Origin: Eledone cirrhosa
Lineage: Eukaryota
Reading direction: 5' to 3'
Assembly: GCA_964016885.1 (NCBI GenBank)
Contig: OZ024746.1
Coordinates: 26,350,001-26,414,000 of the forward strand
Length of the DNA: 64,000 nucleotides
This document shows, piece by piece, positions 1,958 to 20,840 of the stretch (its first letter is position 1; every line of letters starts with the position of its first letter). Both the position numbers and the translations under genes were made by a program. The notes below the pieces were generated by a model. It had not been told where the DNA came from and did no database searches. It saw only the letters and a list, made by a program, of their open reading frames with translations.

Positions 1958-2003
<46 letters not shown>

Positions 2004-2044
2004 CATAATATATAAGAACAAAAGATCGTTAAAGGAGTTCCATG

Positions 2045-2115
2045 TATTTTATTATGCGCATTTCAAAAACAAACATAATCACGCAATAATATTTGTGTTT
2101 TCATCAGATAAAACA
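2045..2115 (-). ncRNA. Type I hammerhead ribozyme (left arm of palindrome)
   Basis: Mirror copy of 2234-2304; the differences fall in the distal stem II/loop. Confidence 0.75.
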
Positions 2116-2233
2116 GGAGGACATGATATGAAGGCTAAAAAACACTTATGGATAGTGCAGTTTTAAATCAACATATGTTGATTTAAAACTGCACTATCCA
2201 CAAGTGTTTTTTAGCCTTCATATCATGTCCTCC

Positions 2234-2304
2234 TGTTTTATCTGATGAAAACACAAATATTATTGCATGATGATGTTTGTTTTTGAAATGCGCATAATAA
2301 AATA
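2234..2304 (+). ncRNA. Type I hammerhead ribozyme (right arm of palindrome)
   Basis: Stem I tgttttat/ataaaata, core CTGATGA (2242-2248), long AT-rich stem II, GAAA (2285-2288), palindromic stem III TGCGCA, cleavage triplet ATA. Confidence 0.75.
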
Positions 2305-2345
2305 CATGGAACTCCTTTAACGATCTTTTGTTCTTATATATTATG

Positions 2346-2428
<83 letters not shown>

Positions 2429-2433
<5 letters not shown>

Positions 2434-4287
2434 ATACTTTGGGAGGGTCATGTTGACACACGCACCAGTTGCTTTCGCTTTAATTTATTATATATTTATA
2501 AACTTATAAATTTCTGGTTGGTTCCACAACCAGATAGTTGTTTATATATAGTCATAGTTCTTTCGTCACTCTGTGACCTCTTCAGTGATTGGGAATTCCT
2601 TTCTTTGTTTCTGTGCCTCTCCTTTGTTCTGTCCTACGCCATTTTGTTTCTGTGTGTGTGTTGTGTGCTCAGTCTGCGCATGCGCCACATCCGGGTGTCT
2701 GTGTGTGTTTATGTTCATTTATTTATTTGTTTATTTACATGTTACTGGTTGGTTGTTTGTTCTATGTGTGTGTGTGTTTTCATTTTGTCCTTAATTGTAA
2801 GTTGTGATGTTGCTGTTCCACTCATATTTTCTATTTAATTTTGGTTGTAATTCTTTTATGTTTATTGCCTCTGTAATTTGTCTAAACATTGCGTCTTTTC
2901 TGTGTGTAGATTCTATTTTTATTTCTATGTTCTCTAATTTACCCTTGTGTTCTATTTTAGCATGTTGGTAGAGTACAGATGATTCTTTATTATCTTGAAG
3001 GTCTCACCAGTGTTCATTTATCCGTTCCCCTACACTACGAGCTGTCTCACCTATGTACACTATATTTTTGTCTCTACATTGTCCTTCAGTACATCTTATG
3101 CTATACACTACATTTCTAGTTTTACAGTTAATATGGGGGCTTATTTTACAGGTTATACATTTCTTATCTATACATGAGGGTCTTTGAAAAGGGTATGTCT
3201 TGCTAATAAGTGTTTTTACGGAGGTACCTGGTCTTTCTACTATCTTAATATTGAGTTTATGTTTATCTAGGGTCCTTCTAAATTTGTAAGCTAATTCACC
3301 TCTAGGGGTTGTATCGGTGAATATTACACTCTGGTATTTATTGCTATCATACCATGAGTTTATTCTATTAACCTTATTCCTAGTTCTTTCTATTCTATTC
3401 CAAAATTTGCTCCTATACAAAGGGCAGGTCCCATTTGTGTCATTATTTACCATTTTTTCCCATTTGGTTCTGGCTCCTCTATATACTCTGATTTTATCAC
3501 TCTGATTGTAACCAGAGAACTGCATACGGTAGATGAAGTGTTGTATGTGTCTCTCTAGTTCTTTGGGGTTGCATATGCGGGACACGTTTCTCATCACCCG
3601 TACCAAATCCGCAATCAGTATGTTGATTTTGGTATGGTCTGAAAGAGCTGAGTTTCGGTGGATCAGATATTTGGAAGTCATGGGTTTGGCATAATGGGAA
3701 TGGAGGATTTGTTTTTTGTTATTAATGGTATCTAACCAGAGCTCTGTGTCTAGTACAGGTAATCGATGGTTGGGGTGTTTGCTTGGGTAGTCTATAGTAA
3801 CTCTAATACTCTGGTAGATGGAGTTAGCTATTTGCTGGATGCTTTCCATTGTGTTTTTCTCTAATTCCTGACTGTTCTCTAGTGGGGGTGTTTTTACTAC
3901 GATGTTTATATCATCAATGTAGCGGGAGTACATTATCAGGGTTAAGGGGTCTTCTAATTGTTCTTTAAGTTTAAGTTTAAGTCTACTGTCCCACCATACC
4001 ATGAATAGGTTAGCTATGTCGCCTGCAATGCTAACACCAATGGCTGCTCCCTCCTCTTGGGTATATGTTTTTCCATTAAATTTGAACATATGTTCCTTAA
4101 GGGTTAATTTTTTGCTGGGCCCCCACTGCATGTGCAATCATTTTCTTTAGTTCATCGTGGTTTTCGGGGGTCCGTATGGCTTTGGTCCACCCGTTCCATC
4201 TATCTGTGTGGGTTTTCTTGGCCATTGAGGTAATGAGGTAATGCGTGTGTTTCTTATTGGCAACATGACCCTCCCAAAGTATAACAA
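2429..4287 (-). mobile_element. Penelope-like element (probably Naiad clade), 5'-truncated, with inverted copy of its terminus at the 5' end
   Basis: RT motifs QEEGAAIGVSIAGDIANLFM and YSRYIDD, Cys-rich linker, GIY-YIG motif VVYSIRC...YIGETAR. The 27-bp terminus 2429-2455 is the exact reverse complement of 4261-4287. Degenerate hammerhead core (CTGAAGA..GAAA) at about 2522-2595. Confidence 0.9.
2791..4240 (-). pseudogene. PLE RT/GIY-YIG ORF with one frameshift (~4120) and one in-frame TGA (3004-3006)
   Basis: Translation past the TGA continues DLQDNKESSVLYQHAKIEH...RQITEAINIKELQPKLNRKYEWNSNITTYN to TAA at 2791-2793. Confidence 0.85.
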
Positions 4288-7870: not shown

Positions 7871-8259
7871 ATATATATATACAATTACACCTCTCAAAGG
7901 CAATACTCAGGTATGTGACCTCTGGCGCTATGCAGTTTTATGGAAGACCTGCCCTCTATTGTTGTTGGTATGAGACTTATACCTAGTAGGCAACACATTC
8001 CTCAACCTGCTATCCACTCTCATTCACCTCCCTTAGCAGTAACCATACCTCGCCTACTACCCTGTCCACGTCTTTTTTCCCCCAAGCCCCTCCACCCTCC
8101 ATAGTCCCCACTGTGTTGTGTCGGTGACACAACAAAGGTGCTCAGTCCACACTGTAAAGTGGACATGTAAAAGACACAACAAAAAGAACCCAGCACACAC
8201 TGTCAATGTGGTTGGCATTAGGAAGGGCATCCAGCTATAGAAAACCAGCCAGAAACTCG

Positions 8260-9590
8260 TCAGCATGGGGGAAAGTGACTCGGCTGAAGCCGACCTTATG
8301 AGCCTGTACATCTTATACCACCTGAAGAACCTCTTCACAGGCCTAACCAGAGGATTATACTGACATGATGGCCTCTTCGCCCTGCACAAAGTTAACCGCA
8401 GAACCACTGATGGGTTTTGGAGAATCTTAAGCTCATTCTTCCATAATCTAGGATTTAGAATAACCACAGAATCCAATATGACTAGGGCCAACCTTTTAGA
8501 TGTCACTCTCGACTTGGATACTTCCCTCTATTACCCGTACCACAAACCTAACGAGTCCCTCAGATATATAAATGTTAATTCGAACCACCCCAAAACATCA
8601 CAGATAACTTAGTTAAAAGTGTCTCACTCAGAATCTCCGGTCTCTCGGCCAATGAAGATATCCTTAGCGCCTCTGCCTCTTACTACAACAATGCCCTCGC
8701 TTGCAGCGGAATTAAAGAAAAGATTACTTATCTAGAAACCATCCCAAGACTACCTAGGAGAAATAAGCATAGGCACATTATTTGGTACAACACCCCTTCA
8801 ATAGAGAGGTGTCTACACCTATAGCTAGGACTTTCTTCAAATTGCTGAATATACACTTCCCCATACAACATAGGTATCTTTAATAAGACTACAATAAAAC
8901 TCTCCTACTCCACTACACCTAACGTAGCTAGGAATATAGCCAACCTCAACACTACAAAATTAAATAAGCCTACTACCTCCGAACCCAATCGCCGAACGGG
9001 AGCTTTGTGCAACTGCCAAAATAAGGAAGCCCTGCCCACTTGAAAACAAATGTCTGACAAATGACATCGTATATAAATGTGATGTCATCTCAGGCACTGA
9101 TGACAACAACAAAAAGACTTATATCGGAATGACTTCCAACAATTTTAAGACCATACCCACACTTTCAGAAGACCGGACAAATTCAATCAGACAACACTCG
9201 CCTCCTATGTCTGGGACCTCAAGAGGAACTCCACCCCTTTTACGCTCAATGGAAAATACTCCAGAAAGCGCGCTCATACAAGGGAGGACACAAGTGCTGT
9301 GACCTTTGTATTTCAGAGAGCTACGAAATGTTATTTGCCAAGGGCCCGCTACTGAACAAACTCTCTGAACACTGCCAGAATTGCATGCACAAAAGCTTTG
9401 CAACTTTCAAATATCTTAAGCCAGTGTTGATGCCCGATAGCTAAGAAAAATTTTTTTTTTAAAACCCCACTCGACAAAATATCCCCTGTACCTCCATCCC
9501 ACCCTACCCTTATCCCTATCTCGACCCGCCTCACGGCACTATGGTTATGCAAATACTTCTTACCTATCTGTTTTTTCCACATGTATAACG
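8260..9590 (+). mobile_element. Decayed Penelope-like element (RT C-terminal half, GIY-YIG, 3' region)
   Basis: Frameshifted remnants LLDVTLDL, YHKPNESLRYINVNSNHPK, IIWYNTPF, KCLTNDIVYKC, TYIGMTSNNFK. Confidence 0.8.
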
Positions 9591-9608
9591 TACTTCAATA
9601 TATATATA

Positions 9609-9653
<45 letters not shown>

Positions 9654-11039
9654 CACCAACCTGAGGCATATGGCCCTTAAAGCGATGAAATGCCTGGGAC
9701 GGTTGGAGGGTCACTGATGAAGGACCTACTTTTTCACATGCCCCACCATTTGCAACGGGCAGCCTATTATTTTCATATTTACACATAATTTTTATTCTGC
9801 TGCCACTCGTCTGTTCGTTTTTACCCTTTCTAGCAGTCTCTTTCTGTTAGCCTCCTCCTCAACTTTCACTCACTCATTCTCTGTCACTACCTCTCCTCCT
9901 CCTCTTTCCTCCTCCTCCTTCAAGTTTGACCTGTGTGTAATTCTTTTCTCGCGCGGTCTTGACCAAGCTGGTATGGAAATTTTTTTCTCTCTCTCTCTTT
10001 CGTCTGCGACTTCACAAAACTTACGTTTACCGAATTCGTAGACCAGACCCCTTTATCTTCTTCTTCTTCTTCTTCTTCTTCTTCTTCTTCTTCTTCTTCT
10101 TCTTCTTCTTCTTCTTCTTCTTCTTCTTCTTCTTCCTCTTCTCTCTTTTCTCTCTCTCTTTTTTCCCCCCCCGTCAAACTTGGGCGAAATTCTTTCCTCG
10201 CTCACATTTCAACCAGGTTTGATGGTCTTTTGTCTCTTGTTCACGATTTCACCGAGTTTATATTCATAGAGATCTGGGACTTGTCTATTTCTACTCACTT
10301 TCCGTTGCTAAAACTTTTTTGTTTGTTACCCTGGCGTCCCCTTTGTTTACGTGTCCCAACGACTTTTTTTAGCCGTTGTTCGCACCAACCTGAGGCATAT
10401 GGCCCTTAAAGCGATGAAATGCCTGGGACGGTTGGAGGGTCACTGATGAAGGACCTACTTTTTCACATGCCCCACCATTTGCAACGGGCAGCCTATTATT
10501 TTCATATTTACACATAATTTTTATTCTGCTGCCACTCGTCTGTTCGTTTTTACCCTTTCTAGCAGTCTCTTTCTCTGTTAGCCTCCTCCTCAACTTTCAC
10601 TCACTCATTCTCTGTCACTACCTCTCCTCCTCCTCTTTCCTCCTCCTCCTTCAAGTTTGACCTGTGTGTAATTCTTTTCTCGCGCGGTCTTGACCAAGCT
10701 GGTATGGAAATTTTTTTCTCTCTCTCTTTCGTCTGCGACTTCACAAAACTTACGTTTACCGAATTCGTAGACCAGACCCCTTTATCTTCTTCTTCTTCTT
10801 CTTCTTCTTCTTCTTCTTCTTCTTCTTCTTCTTCTTCTTCTTCCTCTTCTCTCTTTTCTCTCTCTCTTCCCCCCCCCCCCGTCAAACTTGGGCGAAATTC
10901 TTTCCTTGCTCACATTTCAACCAGGTTTGATGGTCTTTTGTCTCTTGTTCACGATTTCACCGAGTTTATATTCATAGAGATCTGGGACTTGTCTATTTCT
11001 TCTCACTTTCCGTTTCTTAAACTTTTTTGTTTGTTACCC

Positions 11040-11441
11040 TGTAGCAGTGAATGAAATGTATTTTCCTTCTGCGGCGGAATGGTGTTACGGAGGTAAGTTG
11101 GCTGAAGTGTGAGCCAATCGAAACCTTCGGTGCACTAATTGGACTGTCCAGAACTACGTCACCAGGTGAGCGGAGGTAACCAAGAGAGACATTAGTCTAC
11201 ACGCACCTCTCTTATCGACAAGACCAGGCTACACTCATCGCTGCTAACAACATCTCCATCTTGCAATGAAGCGGACCAAACTACATCCTACACATGTAGA
11301 TACTACCTGTACCTAATGTATCCGTTCAACATGTACAACTAATAAATAGAGTTACAACATCGATAATGGATTTAGTCAATGTTCTAAATGCCTTCTGATT
11401 TCTATTATGTATACCAAGAATTGACCCTAAAACCCGTTATA
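11040..11441 (+). repeat. 5' LTR (TG...TA)
   Basis: No differences from 16367-16768 seen by eye; contains AATAAA. Confidence 0.95.
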
Positions 11442-11443
11442 AA

Positions 11444-11461
11444 TGGTGACCCCGACGTGAT
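11444..11461 (+). promoter_or_regulatory. Primer-binding site complementary to the 3' end of tRNA-Trp
   Basis: TGGTGACCCCGACGTGAT is the reverse complement of the metazoan tRNA-Trp end ATCACGTCGGGGTCACCA. Confidence 0.9.
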
Positions 11462-12098
11462 ACGATACAACAAATCACATTATAAATGGTGACCCGAACG
11501 TTTAAGGACATCAACACAGAAGAAACCACATCTTTCCGTTGCAACGAACACATCAACATTTCGCATCCCCCCCCCCCCCCCCCCCCAAAAAAACAAAGCC
11601 ACTCGCCTTTTCTCGGGGTATGTACGCGATTAGCGTGAGTCCTAATATGTATTTGATATATTGTCTTATTGTTACTAAATCTGCACATCACACCTTCACT
11701 TTCTAACATCACCGAACACATGCGTTAATACAAAAATCTAAATACTCTAAATTTCTGATTGGGCGACGCTATAAAAAAACTAAAAAAAAAAAATGGCCGG
11801 TCAGAGCAAGATGGCCGACTTCCGTCTTCTTCAGCTGTTTTCCCGCCAAAATGACGGAGGCAACGCCATTTTGAAAAGTACACAAAAAAAAAAAAAAAAT
11901 AATAATCGGACAAAGATAAATCATAATTTTTTTTTTAAAGCTTGACGTTTTTCCCTCCAACATTGTTTTTGATATATTTTTCTTTTTCTGTCCTTCACTC
12001 GGATTATATTTTTTCTTGGCCTGAATTTTCACTTTTGTCTCGGTGACAAGTGCAGAGTTGTCCTTTCTTTGCCCTTTGCTTTTACATCAGTATACACA

Positions 12099-13007
12099 AT
12101 GGGTAGCACTTCATTGCCACCGTTTACCGGTGACGTCACTGTCTGGTTCGCCCAGATAGAAGCACATTTCACAGCGAATAACATCACCAGTGACCACAGA
12201 CAGTTAAATCTCCTGTTAAGCGCTTTTCCAGCGTCATTGACGTCGGTCGTCAAAGACTTAATTACAGATCCTCGCCCTGGGGCCACCTATGAGAGCGTGA
12301 AGCTCGAAGTGTTGCGGCGGACCACATTGTCCGCAGAAAAAAAATTTCAGACGCTCGTCAATGACGAACATTTGGGTGATCGGACGCCCACACAACTACT
12401 GCGTCGGATGAGAGAGCTGGCGGAAGATGCCCCAGCTGACAGTGCCCTCCTTAGACAGCTTTTTGTCTCAAGGCTACCCCCCGGTGTTCAGGCGATCTTA
12501 GCGCCCATGATGGAGGCTGCTCCTGTCGACCAGCTAGCGGCTTCGGCCGACAGGGTTATGAGTGTCATCGGACACCCAGCCTCATTTGCCCCCTTCCAGG
12601 CACCTCAGCCACCGGCTGCGGTCAATCCGTTCTCTCCTGCCTCCTTCCAGGCACCCCAGCCACCGGCTGCGGTCAATCCGTTCGCTCCTGTCTCCTTCAA
12701 TGCATCCCAGCCGCCGACTGCGGTCGCTTCCTTCACTCCAGCGGCTGCCAGTTATACCGACCAGTCACTTGCAAATGCAGCAATGCTGCAAGCAATAGAG
12801 CAGCTAACCAAGGAAGTGAGAAAACTAAGCACTCACAGGGCTCATTCGCCTAGACGCCGTTTCCAGAGCCGTTCACCCTCGCCACGACGCCGTCACACAA
12901 GCAGTTCAGGTTTGTGTTACTACCACAGCCGTTTTGGCGCAGCAGCACGCTCCTGTAAACAGCCTTGTACATTTTCGGACCAGGGAAACAGATTTCAGGA
13001 GACCTGA
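12099..13007 (+). CDS. gag: Gag protein of CsRn1-type retrotransposon
   Basis: First ATG at 12099; [26 protein letters not shown], zinc knuckle [18 protein letters not shown] (CHCC); three ~51-bp Pro/Ala-rich repeats at about 12593-12735. Confidence 0.92.
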
Positions 13008-13030
13008 GCACGGCACAGTCTCCTCTGACC
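12983..13030 (+). promoter_or_regulatory. -1 ribosomal frameshift signal
   Basis: Slippery heptamer G GGA AAC (12983-12989) in the gag frame, followed by a possible pseudoknot tcag/ctga plus gagac/gtctc. Confidence 0.75.
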
Positions 13031-16000
13031 CTCCCTAATAACCGTGTGTTTTTCATCACAGACACTGAGTCGCAGGCACGTTGTCTGATCGACACCGGCG
13101 CGGCTTGTAGCATTTGGCCGCTAAAACTTCTCAAAGAGAAGCCCCAACTCTCAACCGTCTCTCTGCAAGCAGTAAACCAGTCACCGATCCCCACGTACGG
13201 TCAGATTTCTCGTTCTTTGAACCTGGAATTGCGTAGAGATTTCACGTGGATCTTCACTGTTGCTGATCTGCCTTACCCCATCCTAGGCTCAGATTTCCTG
13301 CACCACTATAACTTGATAGTGGATATGCGCAGACGCCGGTTGTTGGATGCCAACACAGAACTGTCTGTGCCGGGTACCAGATCGACTGTCTCGTCGGTCA
13401 GCCCGGTCTTCTTTATCGCTGCTACAGAAGATCCTTACCAATCACTTTTGCATTCCTTCCCGGAATTAACAAATTTGAATTTTGTGATGAGTGAGCCTAC
13501 TCACTCCACCAAGCACCACATTGAAACATCCGGAGCTCCTGTGTTTTCGCGCCCTCGCCGTCTCTCTGCTGAGAAACTGAAGGCCGCAAGGGCTGAATTC
13601 AATCACATGCTGCAGCTCGGGATCATTCGCCCATCCTCAAGCCCGTGGGCCGCACCCTTGCATTTGGTACCAAAGCGTTCCGGTGATTGGCGTCCCACTG
13701 GGGACTTTCGCCGGTTAAATGCAATGACGGTACCCGACCGCTACCCGATACCACACATACAGGATTTTGCATCTTCGCTGCATGGATGCAACATATTCTC
13801 CAAATTGGATTTGGTCAAAGCATACCACCAAATCCCGGTGAACCCGGCAGACATACCTAAAACTGCAGTAACAACTCCATTTGGAGCGTTTGAATTTTTG
13901 ACCATGCCTTTCGGTTTGCGAAACGCAGCCAGCACGTTCCAACGATTTATGGATGAAGTTGTGCGCGATTTAGACTTCGTGTACAACTACATCGACGACA
14001 TTCTTGTGGCAAGTGCCTCACCTGAGGAACATGTCAATCACCTCCGTCTCCTGTTCGAGAGATTTCAAAAATACCAAGTGAGAATTAATCCGGCAAAATG
14101 TGTTTTCGGTGCTTCCTCACTTGTCTTCTTGGGCCATGTCATCAGCCCAGAAGGAATTTCACCACTACCTGATAAAGTGAAAGCGGTACAAGACCTCCAA
14201 CCACCCACTTCACTTCGTCAACTACGACATTTTCTTGGGCTACTGAACTATTACAGGCGCTTTATCCCACACTGTGCGGATCTCCTGTCTCCTCTGTCCG
14301 ACCTGTTACGTAACAGGAAAAAGAAGAACGATTCCATTTCATTGGACACGAATCAGCTAAAAGCCTTCGACGAAGTGAAGCGGAAGCTTGCGGAGACATC
14401 ACTGCTTGCACATCCTGTGTCTGGTGCCCAGTTTTCACTGGTTGTTGATGCATCAGGCACAGCTGTAGGTGCAGTACTGCAACAACATCACCAACAACAG
14501 TTACAACCTCTTGCCTACTTTTCTAAACAGCTGAAGCCTGCAGAAACACGGTATAGCACATTCGGCCGTGAACTCTTGGCTATGTACCTTGCAGTGAAAC
14601 ACTTTCGGCATTCACTGGAGGGTCGCCAATTTGTTATATACACTGACCACCGTCCGCTTACGTTCGCACTGCGTTCTAAGCCGGACAAATATTCACCTCG
14701 CGAAACTCGCCACTTGGACTTCGTTTCGCAATTTACCAGCGATATCCGACACATCTCTGGTGAACAGAATGCGGCGGCAGATGCACTGTCTCGCCTCCCA
14801 ATTAATTCCCTGTCATCGCCAGCGGAAATCGACCTCCAACGAATGGCCACAGAACAACCACCTCTGGATACTTTGGACCTCTCGTCTTCTGAATTTGCAA
14901 CTGGCAAATTTGCATATCTGCCTGTGCCCACTTCGGACACACAGATTATCTGCGACACCTCGACAGATGCACCTCGCCCTCTAGTGCCAGTGACTCATCG
15001 TCGAGCAGTTTTCGACACCTTGCACGGTCTGGCACACCCTGGAATATCGACCACAGTGAAGCTCATTTCGGCTAGATTCTTCTGGCCTAATATGAGGCGT
15101 GACATCACTGCCTGGACACGTTCCTGCCTATCCTGCCAAAAGTCAAAGGTGCACAAACACATCCGCGCACCCCTTGGAACTTTCAGCACTCCAGACGCTA
15201 GGTTCAGCCATGTCCATATAGATCTTGTCGGACCATGGCCGGTCAGCCGAGGATTTACATACCTCCTGACCTGCATAGATCGCTTCACACGTTGGCCTGA
15301 AGCCATTCCTTTAAGTGACATTTCGGCGGAATCTGTGGCGCGAGCTCTAGTATCGGGTTGGATATCGCGTTACGAAGTTCCAGCCACTATCACCACTGAC
15401 CGCGGTGGACAATTTGAGTCACACCTTTTCCGAGAGCTTTCAAGGATCCTGGGAATGCAACGCATTCGAACGACCAGCTACCATCCAGCTTCTAACGGAA
15501 TGATTGAACGCTTCCACCGCCAATTGAAAGCCGCACTGCGCGCTTATCCGGATCAGCAGCGGTGGAGCGAATATGTACCAATTGTCCTCCTGGGCTGTCG
15601 TGCAGCCATCAAGGAAGATCTAGGCTACTCCCCCGCCGAGTTGGTTTACGGAGTGCCTATATCTCTGCCTGGTCAGATGTTAGCTCCATTGGACCTACCA
15701 GCAACAGACCCAGCTCTGTATGTGAGCAGACTGCAATCATATTTCAGCAATCTTCCGCCTATGCACCCTCGCCAACAGACAATCAAATCTTCGGTCCCGA
15801 AAGACATTGCTTCATGGACCCACGTCTTTTTACGAAAGGACGCCGTGAGAGCTCCTCTCATGCCACCTTATACCGGTCCCTATCGCGTGCTTGAGCGCAC
15901 AGATAAGCTATTCACCCTAGACATTGGGGGTAAAAAAGAGACTGTGTCCATTGACAGGGTAAAACGGGCCTATACAGACACTCTCACACAAGAGCCCCAT

Positions 16001-16144
16001 TTTCCCCCCACATACACCTGGCATCAGCCAAGCCACAATACACATATAACATCGCACACACCTACACCTACATATGTCACCACCACACGTAGCGGTCGGC
16101 GAGTACATTGGCCCAAGAAGCTTTGCAAGACTCTTTATATATGA
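12983..16144 (+). CDS. pol: Pol polyprotein (protease, RT, RNase H, integrase) in the -1 frame relative to gag
   Basis: LIDTGA, YIDD, VDAS, HHCC zinc finger, DDE core, GPY motif; uninterrupted 1059-codon frame. Confidence 0.95.
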
Positions 16145-16366
16145 ACTATGTTATTTACAGCAATCTTCTTGGAGTTTGCTCCGCCCTTGTATTTGTATTA
16201 AATGTATGAACTAAGGTGAACATTACACTATTTCTGACTTTCCTGTAATATGAACATTTCTTTATCAGTGATATATTTTATTGTGTTTACTATTATATAG
16301 TACTTTTTCTTTCATTCAACTGCTACCCTTATTTCTCTGTCGGCTGTAAGCCTAAGCAGGGGGTGA

Positions 16367-16768
16367 TGTAGCAGTGAATGAAATGTATTTTCCTTCTGCG
16401 GCGGAATGGTGTTACGGAGGTAAGTTGGCTGAAGTGTGAGCCAATCGAAACCTTCGGTGCACTAATTGGACTGTCCAGAACTACGTCACCAGGTGAGCGG
16501 AGGTAACCAAGAGAGACATTAGTCTACACGCACCTCTCTTATCGACAAGACCAGGCTACACTCATCGCTGCTAACAACATCTCCATCTTGCAATGAAGCG
16601 GACCAAACTACATCCTACACATGTAGATACTACCTGTACCTAATGTATCCGTTCAACATGTACAACTAATAAATAGAGTTACAACATCGATAATGGATTT
16701 AGTCAATGTTCTAAATGCCTTCTGATTTCTATTATGTATACCAAGAATTGACCCTAAAACCCGTTATA
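16367..16768 (+). repeat. 3' LTR
   Basis: Copy of 11040-11441, preceded by aagcagggggtga. Confidence 0.95.
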
Positions 16769-17704
16769 ACCCTGGCGTCCCCTTTGTTTACGTGTCCCAA
16801 CGACTTTTTTTAGCCGTTGTTCGCACCAACCTGAGGCATATGGCCCTTAAAGCGATGAAATGCCTGGGACGGTTGGAGGGTCACTGATGAAGGACCTACT
16901 TTTTCACATGCCCCACCATTTGCAACGGGCAGCCTATTATTTTCATATTTACACATAATTTTTATTCTGCTGCCACTCGTCTGTTCGTTTTTACCCTTTC
17001 TAGCAGTCTCTTTCTCTGTTAGCCTCCTCCTCAACTTTCACTCACTCATTCTCTGTCACTACCTCTCCTCCTCCTCTTTCCTCCTCCTCCTTCAAGTTTG
17101 ACCTGTGTGTAATTCTTTTCTCGCGCGGTCTTGACCAAGCTGGTATGGAAATTTTTTTCTCTCTCTCTTTCGTCTGCGACTTCACAAAACTTACGTTTAC
17201 CGAATTCGTAGACCAGACCCCTTTATCTTCTTCTTCTTCTTCTTCTTCTTCTTCTTCTTCTTCTTCTTCTTCTTCTTCTTCTTCTTCTTCTTCTTCTTCT
17301 TCTTCTTCTTCTTCTTCTTCTTCTTCTTCTTCTTCTTCTTCCTCTTCTCTCTTTTCTCTCTCTCTTCCCCCCCCCCCCGTCAAACTTGGGCGAAATTCTT
17401 TCCTTGCTCACATTTCAACCAGGTTTGATGGTCTTTTGTCTCTTGTTCACGATTTCACCGAGTTTATATTCATAGAGATCTGGGACTTGTCTATTTCTTC
17501 TCACTTTCCGTTTCTTAAACTTTTTTGTTTGTTACCCTGGCGTCCCCTTTGTTTACGTGTCCCAACGACTTTTTTTAGCCGTTGTTCGCACCAACCTGAG
17601 GCATATGGCCCTTAAAGCGATGAAATGCCTGGGACGGTTGGAGGGTCACTGATGAAGGACCTACTTTTTCACATGCCCACCATTTGCAACGGGCAGCCTA
17701 TTAT

Positions 17705-17777
<73 letters not shown>

Positions 17778-20444: not shown

Positions 20445-20840
20445 TGTGCCTGTGGCTTAGTGGTTAGAGCATTGGCCTTGCAATCGAAAGGTTGTGAGTT
20501 CAATTCTCAGACCGGGTGATGTGTTGTTTCCTTGAGCAAGACACTTTATTTCACATTGCTCCAGTTTACTCAGCTGTAGAAATGAGATGATAGGGACTGG
20601 GGTCCATATCATTCCACTGCGAAGTGGTCGTGGAGGTGCCACGGCAAAAAAGCACCCAGCCCACACTGTAAAGTGGACGTGTAGGTGCCACGGCTAAAAG
20701 GCACCCAGCACTCACTGTAAATGAGGTTGGTGTTAGGAAGGGCATCCAGCTGTAGAAATCAAGCCAAAATCAGTTCCCGTCCCACCCTTGCAAGCAGGGA
20801 AAAGCGGACGTAAAATGAAATGATGATGAAATGATGATGA
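20445..20840 (+). mobile_element. Full-length tRNA-derived CORE-like SINE with RTE family B tail
   Basis: A box tggcttagtgg, B box gagttcaattc, MIR-CORE-like ccttgagcaagacactt...cagtttactcagctgtagaaatg; 3' end cttgcaagcagggaaaagcggacgtaaaatga shared with LINE ends at 41880 and 58450. Confidence 0.85.

What the first reader, a model, noticed from the sequence alone, without database searches (positions are those of the whole stretch)
9651..9775. Unrecognised structured-RNA candidate in the four-times-repeated terminal segment
Seen on the + strand: helix ccaacc/ggttgg joined to helix ggcat/atgcc through tGA / tgg-GAc, a canonical kink-turn geometry (3-nt bulge, tandem G.A pairs). The loop ggccctt is complementary to the downstream gagggtc (possible pseudoknot). 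Next come a hairpin ggtc/gacc whose loop holds CTGATGA, a T5 run, and a hairpin tgccc/gggca. It has partial echoes of hammerhead (CTGATGA), twister (CCC..AAGC and GAGGG) and box C/D or Sm-site RNAs, but matches none that I can recognise. Inference: a possible new ribozyme variant or RNP-binding RNA that defines the element's ends.
Basis: inference. Interest (0 to 1): 0.7.

Follow-up and report, generated by a model that had tools for sequence, protein, structure and literature searches.

The report
Rewired hammerhead ribozyme in jumping repeats
This stretch ends a small repeat with over a thousand copies in this animal genome and carries every part of the self-cutting hammerhead RNA in a scrambled, knotted order, with one helix likely supplied by an extra strand; the same wiring ends published Naiad jumping genes said to lack such an RNA, and it is predicted, not yet shown, to cut itself.

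Summary
The helices are real but misread. The segment is a hammerhead ribozyme core with its blocks in the non-circular order S-G-C: cut site GGCAUA^ (9670/9671), GAAA (9687), CUGAUGA (9714). Unlike published type-SGC hammerheads, stem II pairs mainly with a strand upstream of the cut site (92% of cells paired, against 35% for the usual strand, in 35 aligned copies). Sister families with different letters keep all helices by compensatory changes. The segment is not the end of the gypsy element. It recurs once per ~730-bp unit of a non-coding tandem repeat inserted in (TA)n, with Penelope-like ends (1158 exact core copies); a young gypsy element jumped into unit 2. Two published octopus Naiad retrotransposon consensus sequences, reported to lack canonical hammerheads, end in the same wiring (read by eye). 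Against: no RNA data, no cleavage test, an unremarkable nested fold, and no Naiad parent found in this genome. This scan found the same motif before at other places in this genome; the Naiad lead came from those notes and I checked it in the paper's supplement.

The parts
9651..9654 (+). P0 5' strand (UCGC): extra upstream strand that pairs with 9682-9685 and likely builds most of stem II
   Evidence: (92% paired)
9656..9661 (+). stem III extension, 5' strand (pairs with 9701-9706)
9662..9664 (+). kink-turn, non-bulged strand (N-G-A)
   Evidence: G in 30 of 31, A in 29 of 31
9665..9677 (+). block S: stem III strand GGCAU, A17, predicted cut between 9670 and 9671, stem I strand UGGCCCU
9682..9694 (+). 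block G: stem II 3' strand GCGAU, core GAAA (9687-9690), stem III strand AUGCC
9695..9706 (+). kink-turn bulged strand (3-nt bulge, G-A) and stem III extension 3' strand
9707..9722 (+). block C: stem I strand AGGGUCA, core CUGAUGA (9714-9720), then one variable base and a conserved G that may give the first pair of stem II
   Evidence: G in 35 of 35 rows, partly selected by the search patterns
9723..9775 (+). 3' terminal segment of the mobile unit; insertions end 15-16 or 50-70 nt after CUGANGA, like the Penelope 'tail'; small hairpin TGCCC/GGGCA not kept in sister families
9651..17709 (+). whole insertion between two (TA)n tracts: about 3.2 head-to-tail non-coding units (729, about 708 split by the gypsy element, 765, partial); further predicted cuts at 10399/10400, 16840/16841, 17605/17606
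11040..16768 (+). unrelated Ty3/gypsy-type LTR retrotransposon inserted in unit 2 (identical LTRs 11040-11441 and 16367-16768, 4-bp target duplication ACCC)

Best explanation
The segment holds a complete hammerhead ribozyme core with its blocks in non-circular S-G-C order, in which an extra upstream strand likely forms most of stem II and a kink-turn likely folds stem III back; it is predicted to cut itself after 9670 and sits once per unit in a non-coding tandem repeat that is likely mobilised by a Penelope-like, probably Naiad, reverse transcriptase. Shown: the letters, the block order, covariation of four helices across sister families, copy numbers, (TA)n targets, clustered 3' ends and variable 5' ends. 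Inferred: (1) stems I, III and P0 form together as three mutually crossing helices; the outer ends of stem I, P0 and the stem III extension meet in a second three-way junction (linkers 0, 1 and 3-4 nt), which would replace the usual loop I-loop II contact; the kink-turn supplies the bend that lets stem III reach it. (2) The G two bases after CUGAUGA gives at most the first pair of stem II and P0 stacks under it. (3) Transcripts through the array are cut once per unit into ~730-nt monomers that may circularise, as in non-LTR retrozymes. (4) A Penelope-like RT/endonuclease nicks (TA)n DNA, starts copying 15-70 nt downstream of the ribozyme and stops at random, which gives clustered 3' ends, variable 5' ends and multi-unit inserts; the template is uncut multimer or circle, since no 5' end maps to the cut site.
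For: All invariant core letters present and in register (stem I 8, stem III 6 possible pairs). On 35 aligned copies the 22 pairs are 91% paired, 15 pairs show double changes, 0 of 500 shuffles reach this, slid controls 31-49% (rows were pre-filtered on stems I and III, not on P0, the extension or the kink). P0: 92%; family C 177 of 201 cells, 88%, slid 23-40%; old family G, found by BLAST and unfiltered, 57 of 78 cells, 73%, slid 23-35%, like its stem I at 74%. P0 letters differ between families (UCGC/GCGA, GGCGC/GCGCC, GGCACC/GGUGUC). The strand after CUGAUGA pairs at 35%, 46% in G and 60% in C, there only the first two positions and a G-U. Young family J shares only about 90 nt with family A, the ribozyme part, and swaps a C-G for G-C in the extension. 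Counts: 1158 against 0 control, 487 against 1, 665 against 0. All 23 distinct family-A insertions end at unit position about 128-137 next to (TA)n-type repeats, with 5' ends from 1 to 718. Naiad_Obim and Naiad_Ovul end in the same wiring, closest to family F; Naiads prefer (TA)n and 'lack canonical HHR' (PMC8557442). Type-SGC RNAs cleave in vitro (PMC10085705).
Against: No cleavage test and no RNA evidence: no contig of the two RNA-labelled runs laid on the stretch, and the two holders laid are of unrecorded type. The nested minimum-energy fold uses the competing GGUC/GACC hairpin and is not better than shuffles. In the window family the first stem II pair is at best G-U or A-U, and 4 of 35 rows have A at 11.1, not the usual G-C. 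A stem II that is not covalently continuous with CUGAUGA breaks the block rule of PMC10085705. Within families many changes are neutral decay, and one P0 double change (L108) fits CpG decay on both sides. No Naiad coding sequence was found next to a motif in this genome. No 5' end of the 23 insertions lies at the cut site, and in one Penelope-like element cleavage was not needed for insertion in vitro (PMC11167929).
Confidence: 0.7

Rival explanations
1. It is an ordinary type-SGC hammerhead with a minimal 1-2 bp stem II made by the strand after CUGAUGA; P0 is an accessory or inhibitory helix that switches the ribozyme off in the long transcript.
For: The G two bases after CUGAUGA is kept in 35 of 35 rows and can pair with 11.1 in 31 of 35; in family C the first two tail pairs form in 42 and 39 of 42 rows (the first is selected by the pattern). 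Minimal stem II forms are known in Penelope-like elements (recalled; title seen).
Against: P0 covers positions 11.2-11.5 in every family with different letters, and no other partner for them is conserved. The stem I-stem II helix of published SGC RNAs has no conserved counterpart here.
Confidence: 0.13
2. [quoted passage not shown]
For: Weak first pair of stem II; 5' ends ignore the cut site; 3' ends keep a fixed distance from the motif; one Penelope-like hammerhead cut only with its protein and was dispensable for insertion in vitro.
Against: The cut-site letter is A or C in all 35 aligned rows and U in some family C copies, never G (the row filter excluded G, so this is weak), and the core is intact in young families with unrelated bodies. 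Family C has no kink-turn yet keeps the core.
Confidence: 0.11
3. The ribozyme assembles between neighbouring units of the array (block C of unit n, G of n+1, S of n+2), which restores the ordinary circular order, so no knot is needed.
For: The motif occurs in tandem arrays of up to at least 9 units; Penelope-like hammerheads that cleave as dimers are reported (title seen; passage on amphibian dimers).
Against: Stem III with its extension is a local nested hairpin that holds blocks S and G in cis (-11.9 kcal/mol); Naiad_Ovul is listed without pLTR and shows one motif.
Confidence: 0.04
4. It is a new ribozyme class or a snoRNA/snRNA-like RNA (twister, box C/D or Sm echoes), and the hammerhead letters are coincidence.
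For: No Rfam hammerhead model matches; a kink-turn is present.
Against: Rfam also misses the canonical type I hammerheads at 2242(+) and 2107(-) in this window. The twister-like and U-run letters change in sister families while hammerhead pairs covary.
Confidence: 0.02

Closest known systems
Type-SGC hammerhead ribozymes (HRIMA-1 and SGC variants; Eckert et al. 2023, PMC10085705)
   Same: Block order S-G-C, full core, three crossing stems, short linker from stem I to stem II.
   Different: There stem II is made by the strand right after CUGAUGA(U), with an extra stem I-II helix; here it is mostly made by a strand upstream of the cut site, stem III is extended through a kink-turn, and the RNA sits in an animal genome, not only in metatranscriptomes. 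The published descriptors (CGAAA, CUGAUGA(U)G) would miss the window family.
Naiad Penelope-like retrotransposons (Craig et al. 2021, PMC8557442)
   Same: (TA)n targets, tandem and inverted inserts, 30-40 nt tail; the Naiad_Obim and Naiad_Ovul consensus ends show the same wiring.
   Different: The window repeat codes for nothing; no Naiad ORF was found beside any motif here; the paper reports no canonical hammerhead and marks such cases 'HHR_half_core'.
Non-LTR retrozymes of animals (Cervera and de la Pena 2020, PMC7229834; Li et al. 2026, 10.64898/2026.07.22.740005)
   Same: Non-coding head-to-tail repeats with one hammerhead per unit, GC below 45%, proposed to derive from Penelope-like elements.
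   Different: They carry type I hammerheads and mostly 150-450 bp units with highly self-paired circles; here the ribozyme is non-circularly permuted, the unit is 530-765 bp and pyrimidine-rich (36% paired as a circle), and circles are not shown.
Type-CSG hammerheads (PMC10085705)
   Same: Same reversed circle of strands; the window form equals CSG with the stem I strand and CUGANGA moved to the 3' end.
   Different: CSG keeps CUGANGA joined to stem II; the window form is opened at that joint.

Membership tests
Hammerhead ribozyme (any type) | Core CUGANGA, GAAA and UH in register with stems I and III | tested here: met
Hammerhead ribozyme (any type) | Site-specific self-cleavage after UH | not testable with these tools
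   no usable RNA reads
Hammerhead types I, II, III | Circular block order CGS, GSC or SCG | tested here: not met
   order is SGC in all four copies
Type-SGC hammerhead | Block order S-G-C with covarying stems I and III | tested here: met
Type-SGC hammerhead | Stem II of 3 or more pairs formed by the strand directly after CUGAUGA (intact block C; descriptor CGAAA and CUGAUGA(U)G) | tested here: not met
   35% paired, one pair at most in the window family; two in family C; descriptor read
Type-SGC hammerhead | Extra helix joining the strand before stem I with the strand after stem II | tested here: inconclusive
   a 5 of 6 match can be drawn by eye in the window family only; those bases are used by the covarying stem III extension; not counted separately
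Kink-turn | Canonical stem, 3-nt bulge, tandem G.A pairs, second stem (consensus recalled) | tested here: met
   29-31 of 31 A/B-type rows; absent in family C
Kink-turn | Kinked geometry and L7Ae/Snu13 binding | not testable with these tools
   needs experiment
Non-LTR retrozyme | Non-coding tandem repeats with a ribozyme in each unit | tested here: met
   unit lengths vary out of frame, so no ORF is conserved
Non-LTR retrozyme | Type I hammerhead | tested here: not met
Non-LTR retrozyme | Expressed monomeric circular RNA | tested here: inconclusive
   no RNA contig laid
Non-autonomous Penelope-like (Naiad) derivative | (TA)n targets, clustered 3' ends with optional tail, 5' truncation, inverted copies | tested here: met
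Non-autonomous Penelope-like (Naiad) derivative | 3' end shared with an autonomous element in the same genome | tested here: inconclusive
   shared wiring with published Naiads but no parent found in G000
Twister ribozyme / box C/D snoRNA | Match to the Rfam models; conserved pseudoknot or box letters | tested here: not met
   letters vary

The most novel reading that the evidence does not exclude
An active hammerhead of a seventh wiring: block C, thought to be unbreakable, is split so that stem II comes from a strand upstream of the cut site, giving a closed cage of two three-way junctions bent by a kink-turn. It is the missing ribozyme of Naiad retrotransposons, which use several reverse-order hammerheads (this form in cephalopods, type CSG in nematodes), and it drives young circular-RNA retrozyme families in animal genomes.
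Probability: 0.5. Interest if true: 0.85.

Novelty: new variant of a known kind. Interest (0 to 1): 0.72.

Why it matters
Non-circularly permuted hammerheads were reported from metatranscriptomes and metagenomes, with one doubtful bacterial case; here one sits in thousands of genomic copies in an animal, in a wiring outside the six orders that the discovering paper allowed. It would overturn the statement that Naiad retrotransposons proliferate without a hammerhead, show that descriptor searches miss a whole class of genomic ribozymes, and give an 80-nt RNA on which the folding of a triple-crossing knot, a split stem II and a kink-turn inside a ribozyme can be tested in one transcription assay.

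Tried and rejected
Gypsy terminus: rejected; the element has its own LTRs and target duplication inside unit 2. The GIY-YIG Penelope remnant at about 8100-9600 as parent: rejected; 30 copies of its 3' end show no CUGANGA in the aligned 290 nt. GGTC/GACC hairpin: not conserved. Tail strand as stem II: 35%. An AAAG/CUUU helix was considered by eye and dropped (broken in several B copies; not counted). Pistol and twister layouts were tried by eye from memory and did not fit. Rfam at E<=10: only microsatellite noise. Search for an autonomous partner: tblastn of window Penelope proteins against 80 and 83 loci gave only neighbouring, separate remnants; five F-like loci had no RT frame recognisable by eye upstream; a 26-nt Naiad RT motif had no match at 3 mismatches. 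Expression: 21 runs with shares of 0.04-0.05; two were laid and gave nothing; 2 of the 3 holders were laid and are of unrecorded type. Pattern hits that are canonical type I hammerheads or chance (for example L070, L081, L085, L099, L100, L109, L110, L160) were set aside. Whether inserts come from circles could not be decided: units 2-4 show no substitution, unit 1 differs at four point sites and a run edge.

Full report
Setting. The segment starts right after a (TA)n tract and recurs at 9651, 10380, 16821 and 17586. These are head-to-tail units of about 730-765 bp; the last one stops at 17709 before another (TA)n tract. The two ORFs in between are gag-like and protease-RT-RNase H-integrase frames of a gypsy-type element with identical LTRs and an ACCC duplication, inserted into unit 2. 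So the four copies are not that element's ends. The Penelope remnant upstream is a separate family whose 3' end has no hammerhead core in 30 aligned copies.

What the RNA is. Read as a hammerhead (numbering recalled), GGCAU-A is stem III plus the UH site, UGGCCCU is stem I, GAAA-UGCC is the G block, and AGGGUCA-CUGAUGA is stem I plus the core. A scanner for all six block orders found S-G-C at CUGANGA 9714, 10443, 16884 and 17649 and two canonical type I hammerheads at 2242(+) and 2107(-), nothing else. Rfam finds neither kind. In 60 simulated windows no S-G-C match reached 7 and 5 pairs. Eckert et al. 2023 (PMC10085705; I read main-text parts 1, 3, 4 and 5 of 8 and supplement parts 1 and 8) define type SGC, show that it cleaves, assume that block C cannot be interrupted, and found no such RNA in genomes of known organisms apart from one doubtful GCS case. 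Their descriptors need CGAAA and CUGAUGA(U)G, which the window motif lacks.

Sister families. The window family has 1158 exact matches to a 30-nt core stretch (control 0). Patterns that excluded it gave 99 hits against 18, many of them sister families and some canonical hammerheads or chance; family C gave 487 against 1 and longer-spacer A/B-like families 665 against 0. BLAST gave an old family G (39 hits), H (6) and F (3). These counts are lower bounds. For one search I took 35 rows out of 72 that passed a filter on stems I and III, leaving out the family C rows, duplicates, two 5'-truncated rows and L193. The 22 pairs are 91% paired with 15 double changes; no shuffle of 500 reaches this and slid partners give 31-49%. 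The filter inflates stems I and III; the search pattern deliberately breaks one stem III pair (16 of 35). The shuffles ignore relatedness, so the stronger evidence is between families: stem I UGGCCCU/AGGGUCA, UGGUCUU/AAGAUCA, CUGUU/AACAG; stem III GGCA/UGCC, GGUA/UACC, GAUG/CAUC.

The split stem II. The five bases before GAAA should pair with the strand after CUGAUGA. They do not: 35%, with only the first position paired (31 of 35, mostly U-G). They pair instead with a strand 0-1 nt before the stem III extension: 92%; 177 of 201 cells in 42 family C rows (8 truncated rows dropped; the set includes one G row, one non-member and two rearranged copies); 57 of 78 cells in 13 of 14 unfiltered, decayed G copies; 4 of 4 in 19 of 20 motifs from 12 more loci, the exception having lost its 5' part. 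In C and G the upstream strand can also pair with position 11.1; in the window family it cannot, and the conserved G after CUGAUGA is the only partner. I therefore infer a composite stem II: one pair from the tail, the rest from P0. The form equals the reversed circle of SGC, GCS and CSG opened between CUGANGA and stem II.

Kink-turn and cage. Since stem III points away from stems I and II in the hammerhead fold (recalled; also discussed), a sharp bend is what this linkage needs. This is inference.

The mobile element. The 30 loci are 23 distinct insertions; all end near unit position 128-137 beside (TA)n-type repeats, and their 5' ends range from 1 to 718 (the query favours long ends). Among 56 pattern-found A/B-type motifs, 11 end 15-16 nt and 27 end 50-66 nt after CUGANGA, 3 in between, and 15 have no TA tract within 130 nt. 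The two end classes recall the optional 30-40 nt tail of Penelope-like elements (passages). Inverted pairs and arrays of at least 9 units occur. Families A and J share only about 90 nt, the ribozyme, which points to selection on it. Tandem non-coding repeats with one hammerhead each are retrozymes (passages of PMC7229834; parts 1-2 of 5 of the 2026 preprint, whose supplements I could not see), but those described carry type I hammerheads.

Naiad link. This lead came from earlier notes of this scan. Craig et al. 2021 (passages; supplement rows and part 24) report no canonical hammerhead in Naiads, (TA)n preference, and eight 'HHR_half_core' cases. By eye, Naiad_Obim and Naiad_Ovul end about 70 nt after a motif with P0 GACACC/GGUGUC, UGGUA^ and stem I CUGCCC/GGGCAG, close to family F here. 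The record before Naiad_Adux (probably Naiad_Esco) has S-G-C order in other letters with a weaker P0, and three nematode-region records show C-S-G order. I saw only part of that file and ran no program on it. In this genome I found no Naiad frame beside a motif, so the driver of the young families is inferred.

Novelty and verdict. Seven searches of the held library showed no paper on a non-circular hammerhead in an animal genome or in Naiads; subscription journals are not covered and most hits were seen as listings only. The scan itself has noted the motif at least eight times elsewhere in this genome; those are unchecked AI notes, not support. It works like a type-SGC hammerhead in a retrozyme, but fails the stem II feature of that type, so I file it as a new variant. 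Cleavage is untested (searches gave no RNA evidence). Hammerhead descent about 0.95, activity in this wiring about 0.7, interest 0.72.

Noticed in passing
window 11040-16768: Young gypsy-type LTR element with 100% identical LTRs, open gag and pol frames that overlap, and a 5' LTR followed by a short duplicated primer-binding-like stretch (11444-11500).
   Followed up: partly
window 1960-2389: Near-perfect 215-bp palindrome between (TA)n tracts with a canonical type I hammerhead on each strand (2242 +, 2107 -) that Rfam misses; looks like an inverted Penelope end.
   Followed up: partly
window 8100-9600 and 3004-4137: Two decayed Penelope-like remnants with RT and GIY-YIG pieces; the first belongs to a family with 1685 first-look candidates whose 3' end shows no hammerhead core.
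   Followed up: partly
PMC8557442 supplement, records before Naiad_Hpol, Naiad_Hcon and Naiad_Parc: By eye, three nematode-region Naiad consensus sequences carry clean type-CSG hammerheads (all three stems complementary), an order published from only two metagenomic sequences.
   Followed up: partly
L199 (G000:C1:91792000-91795600): Very young family J: 533-bp unit, five near-identical tandem copies, many dispersed inserts; same ribozyme, unrelated body.
   Followed up: partly
L115:1400-1640: Two family C motifs face to face, with an inversion junction inside the ribozyme.
   Followed up: no
L074-L077 (G000:C1:399.29-399.38 Mb): A family B insertion repeated four times about 28-31 kb apart, inside a larger segmental repeat.
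   Followed up: no
window 20449-20516: Weak tRNA match (31.8 bits) inside a repeat seen several times in the window; probably a SINE head.
   Followed up: no
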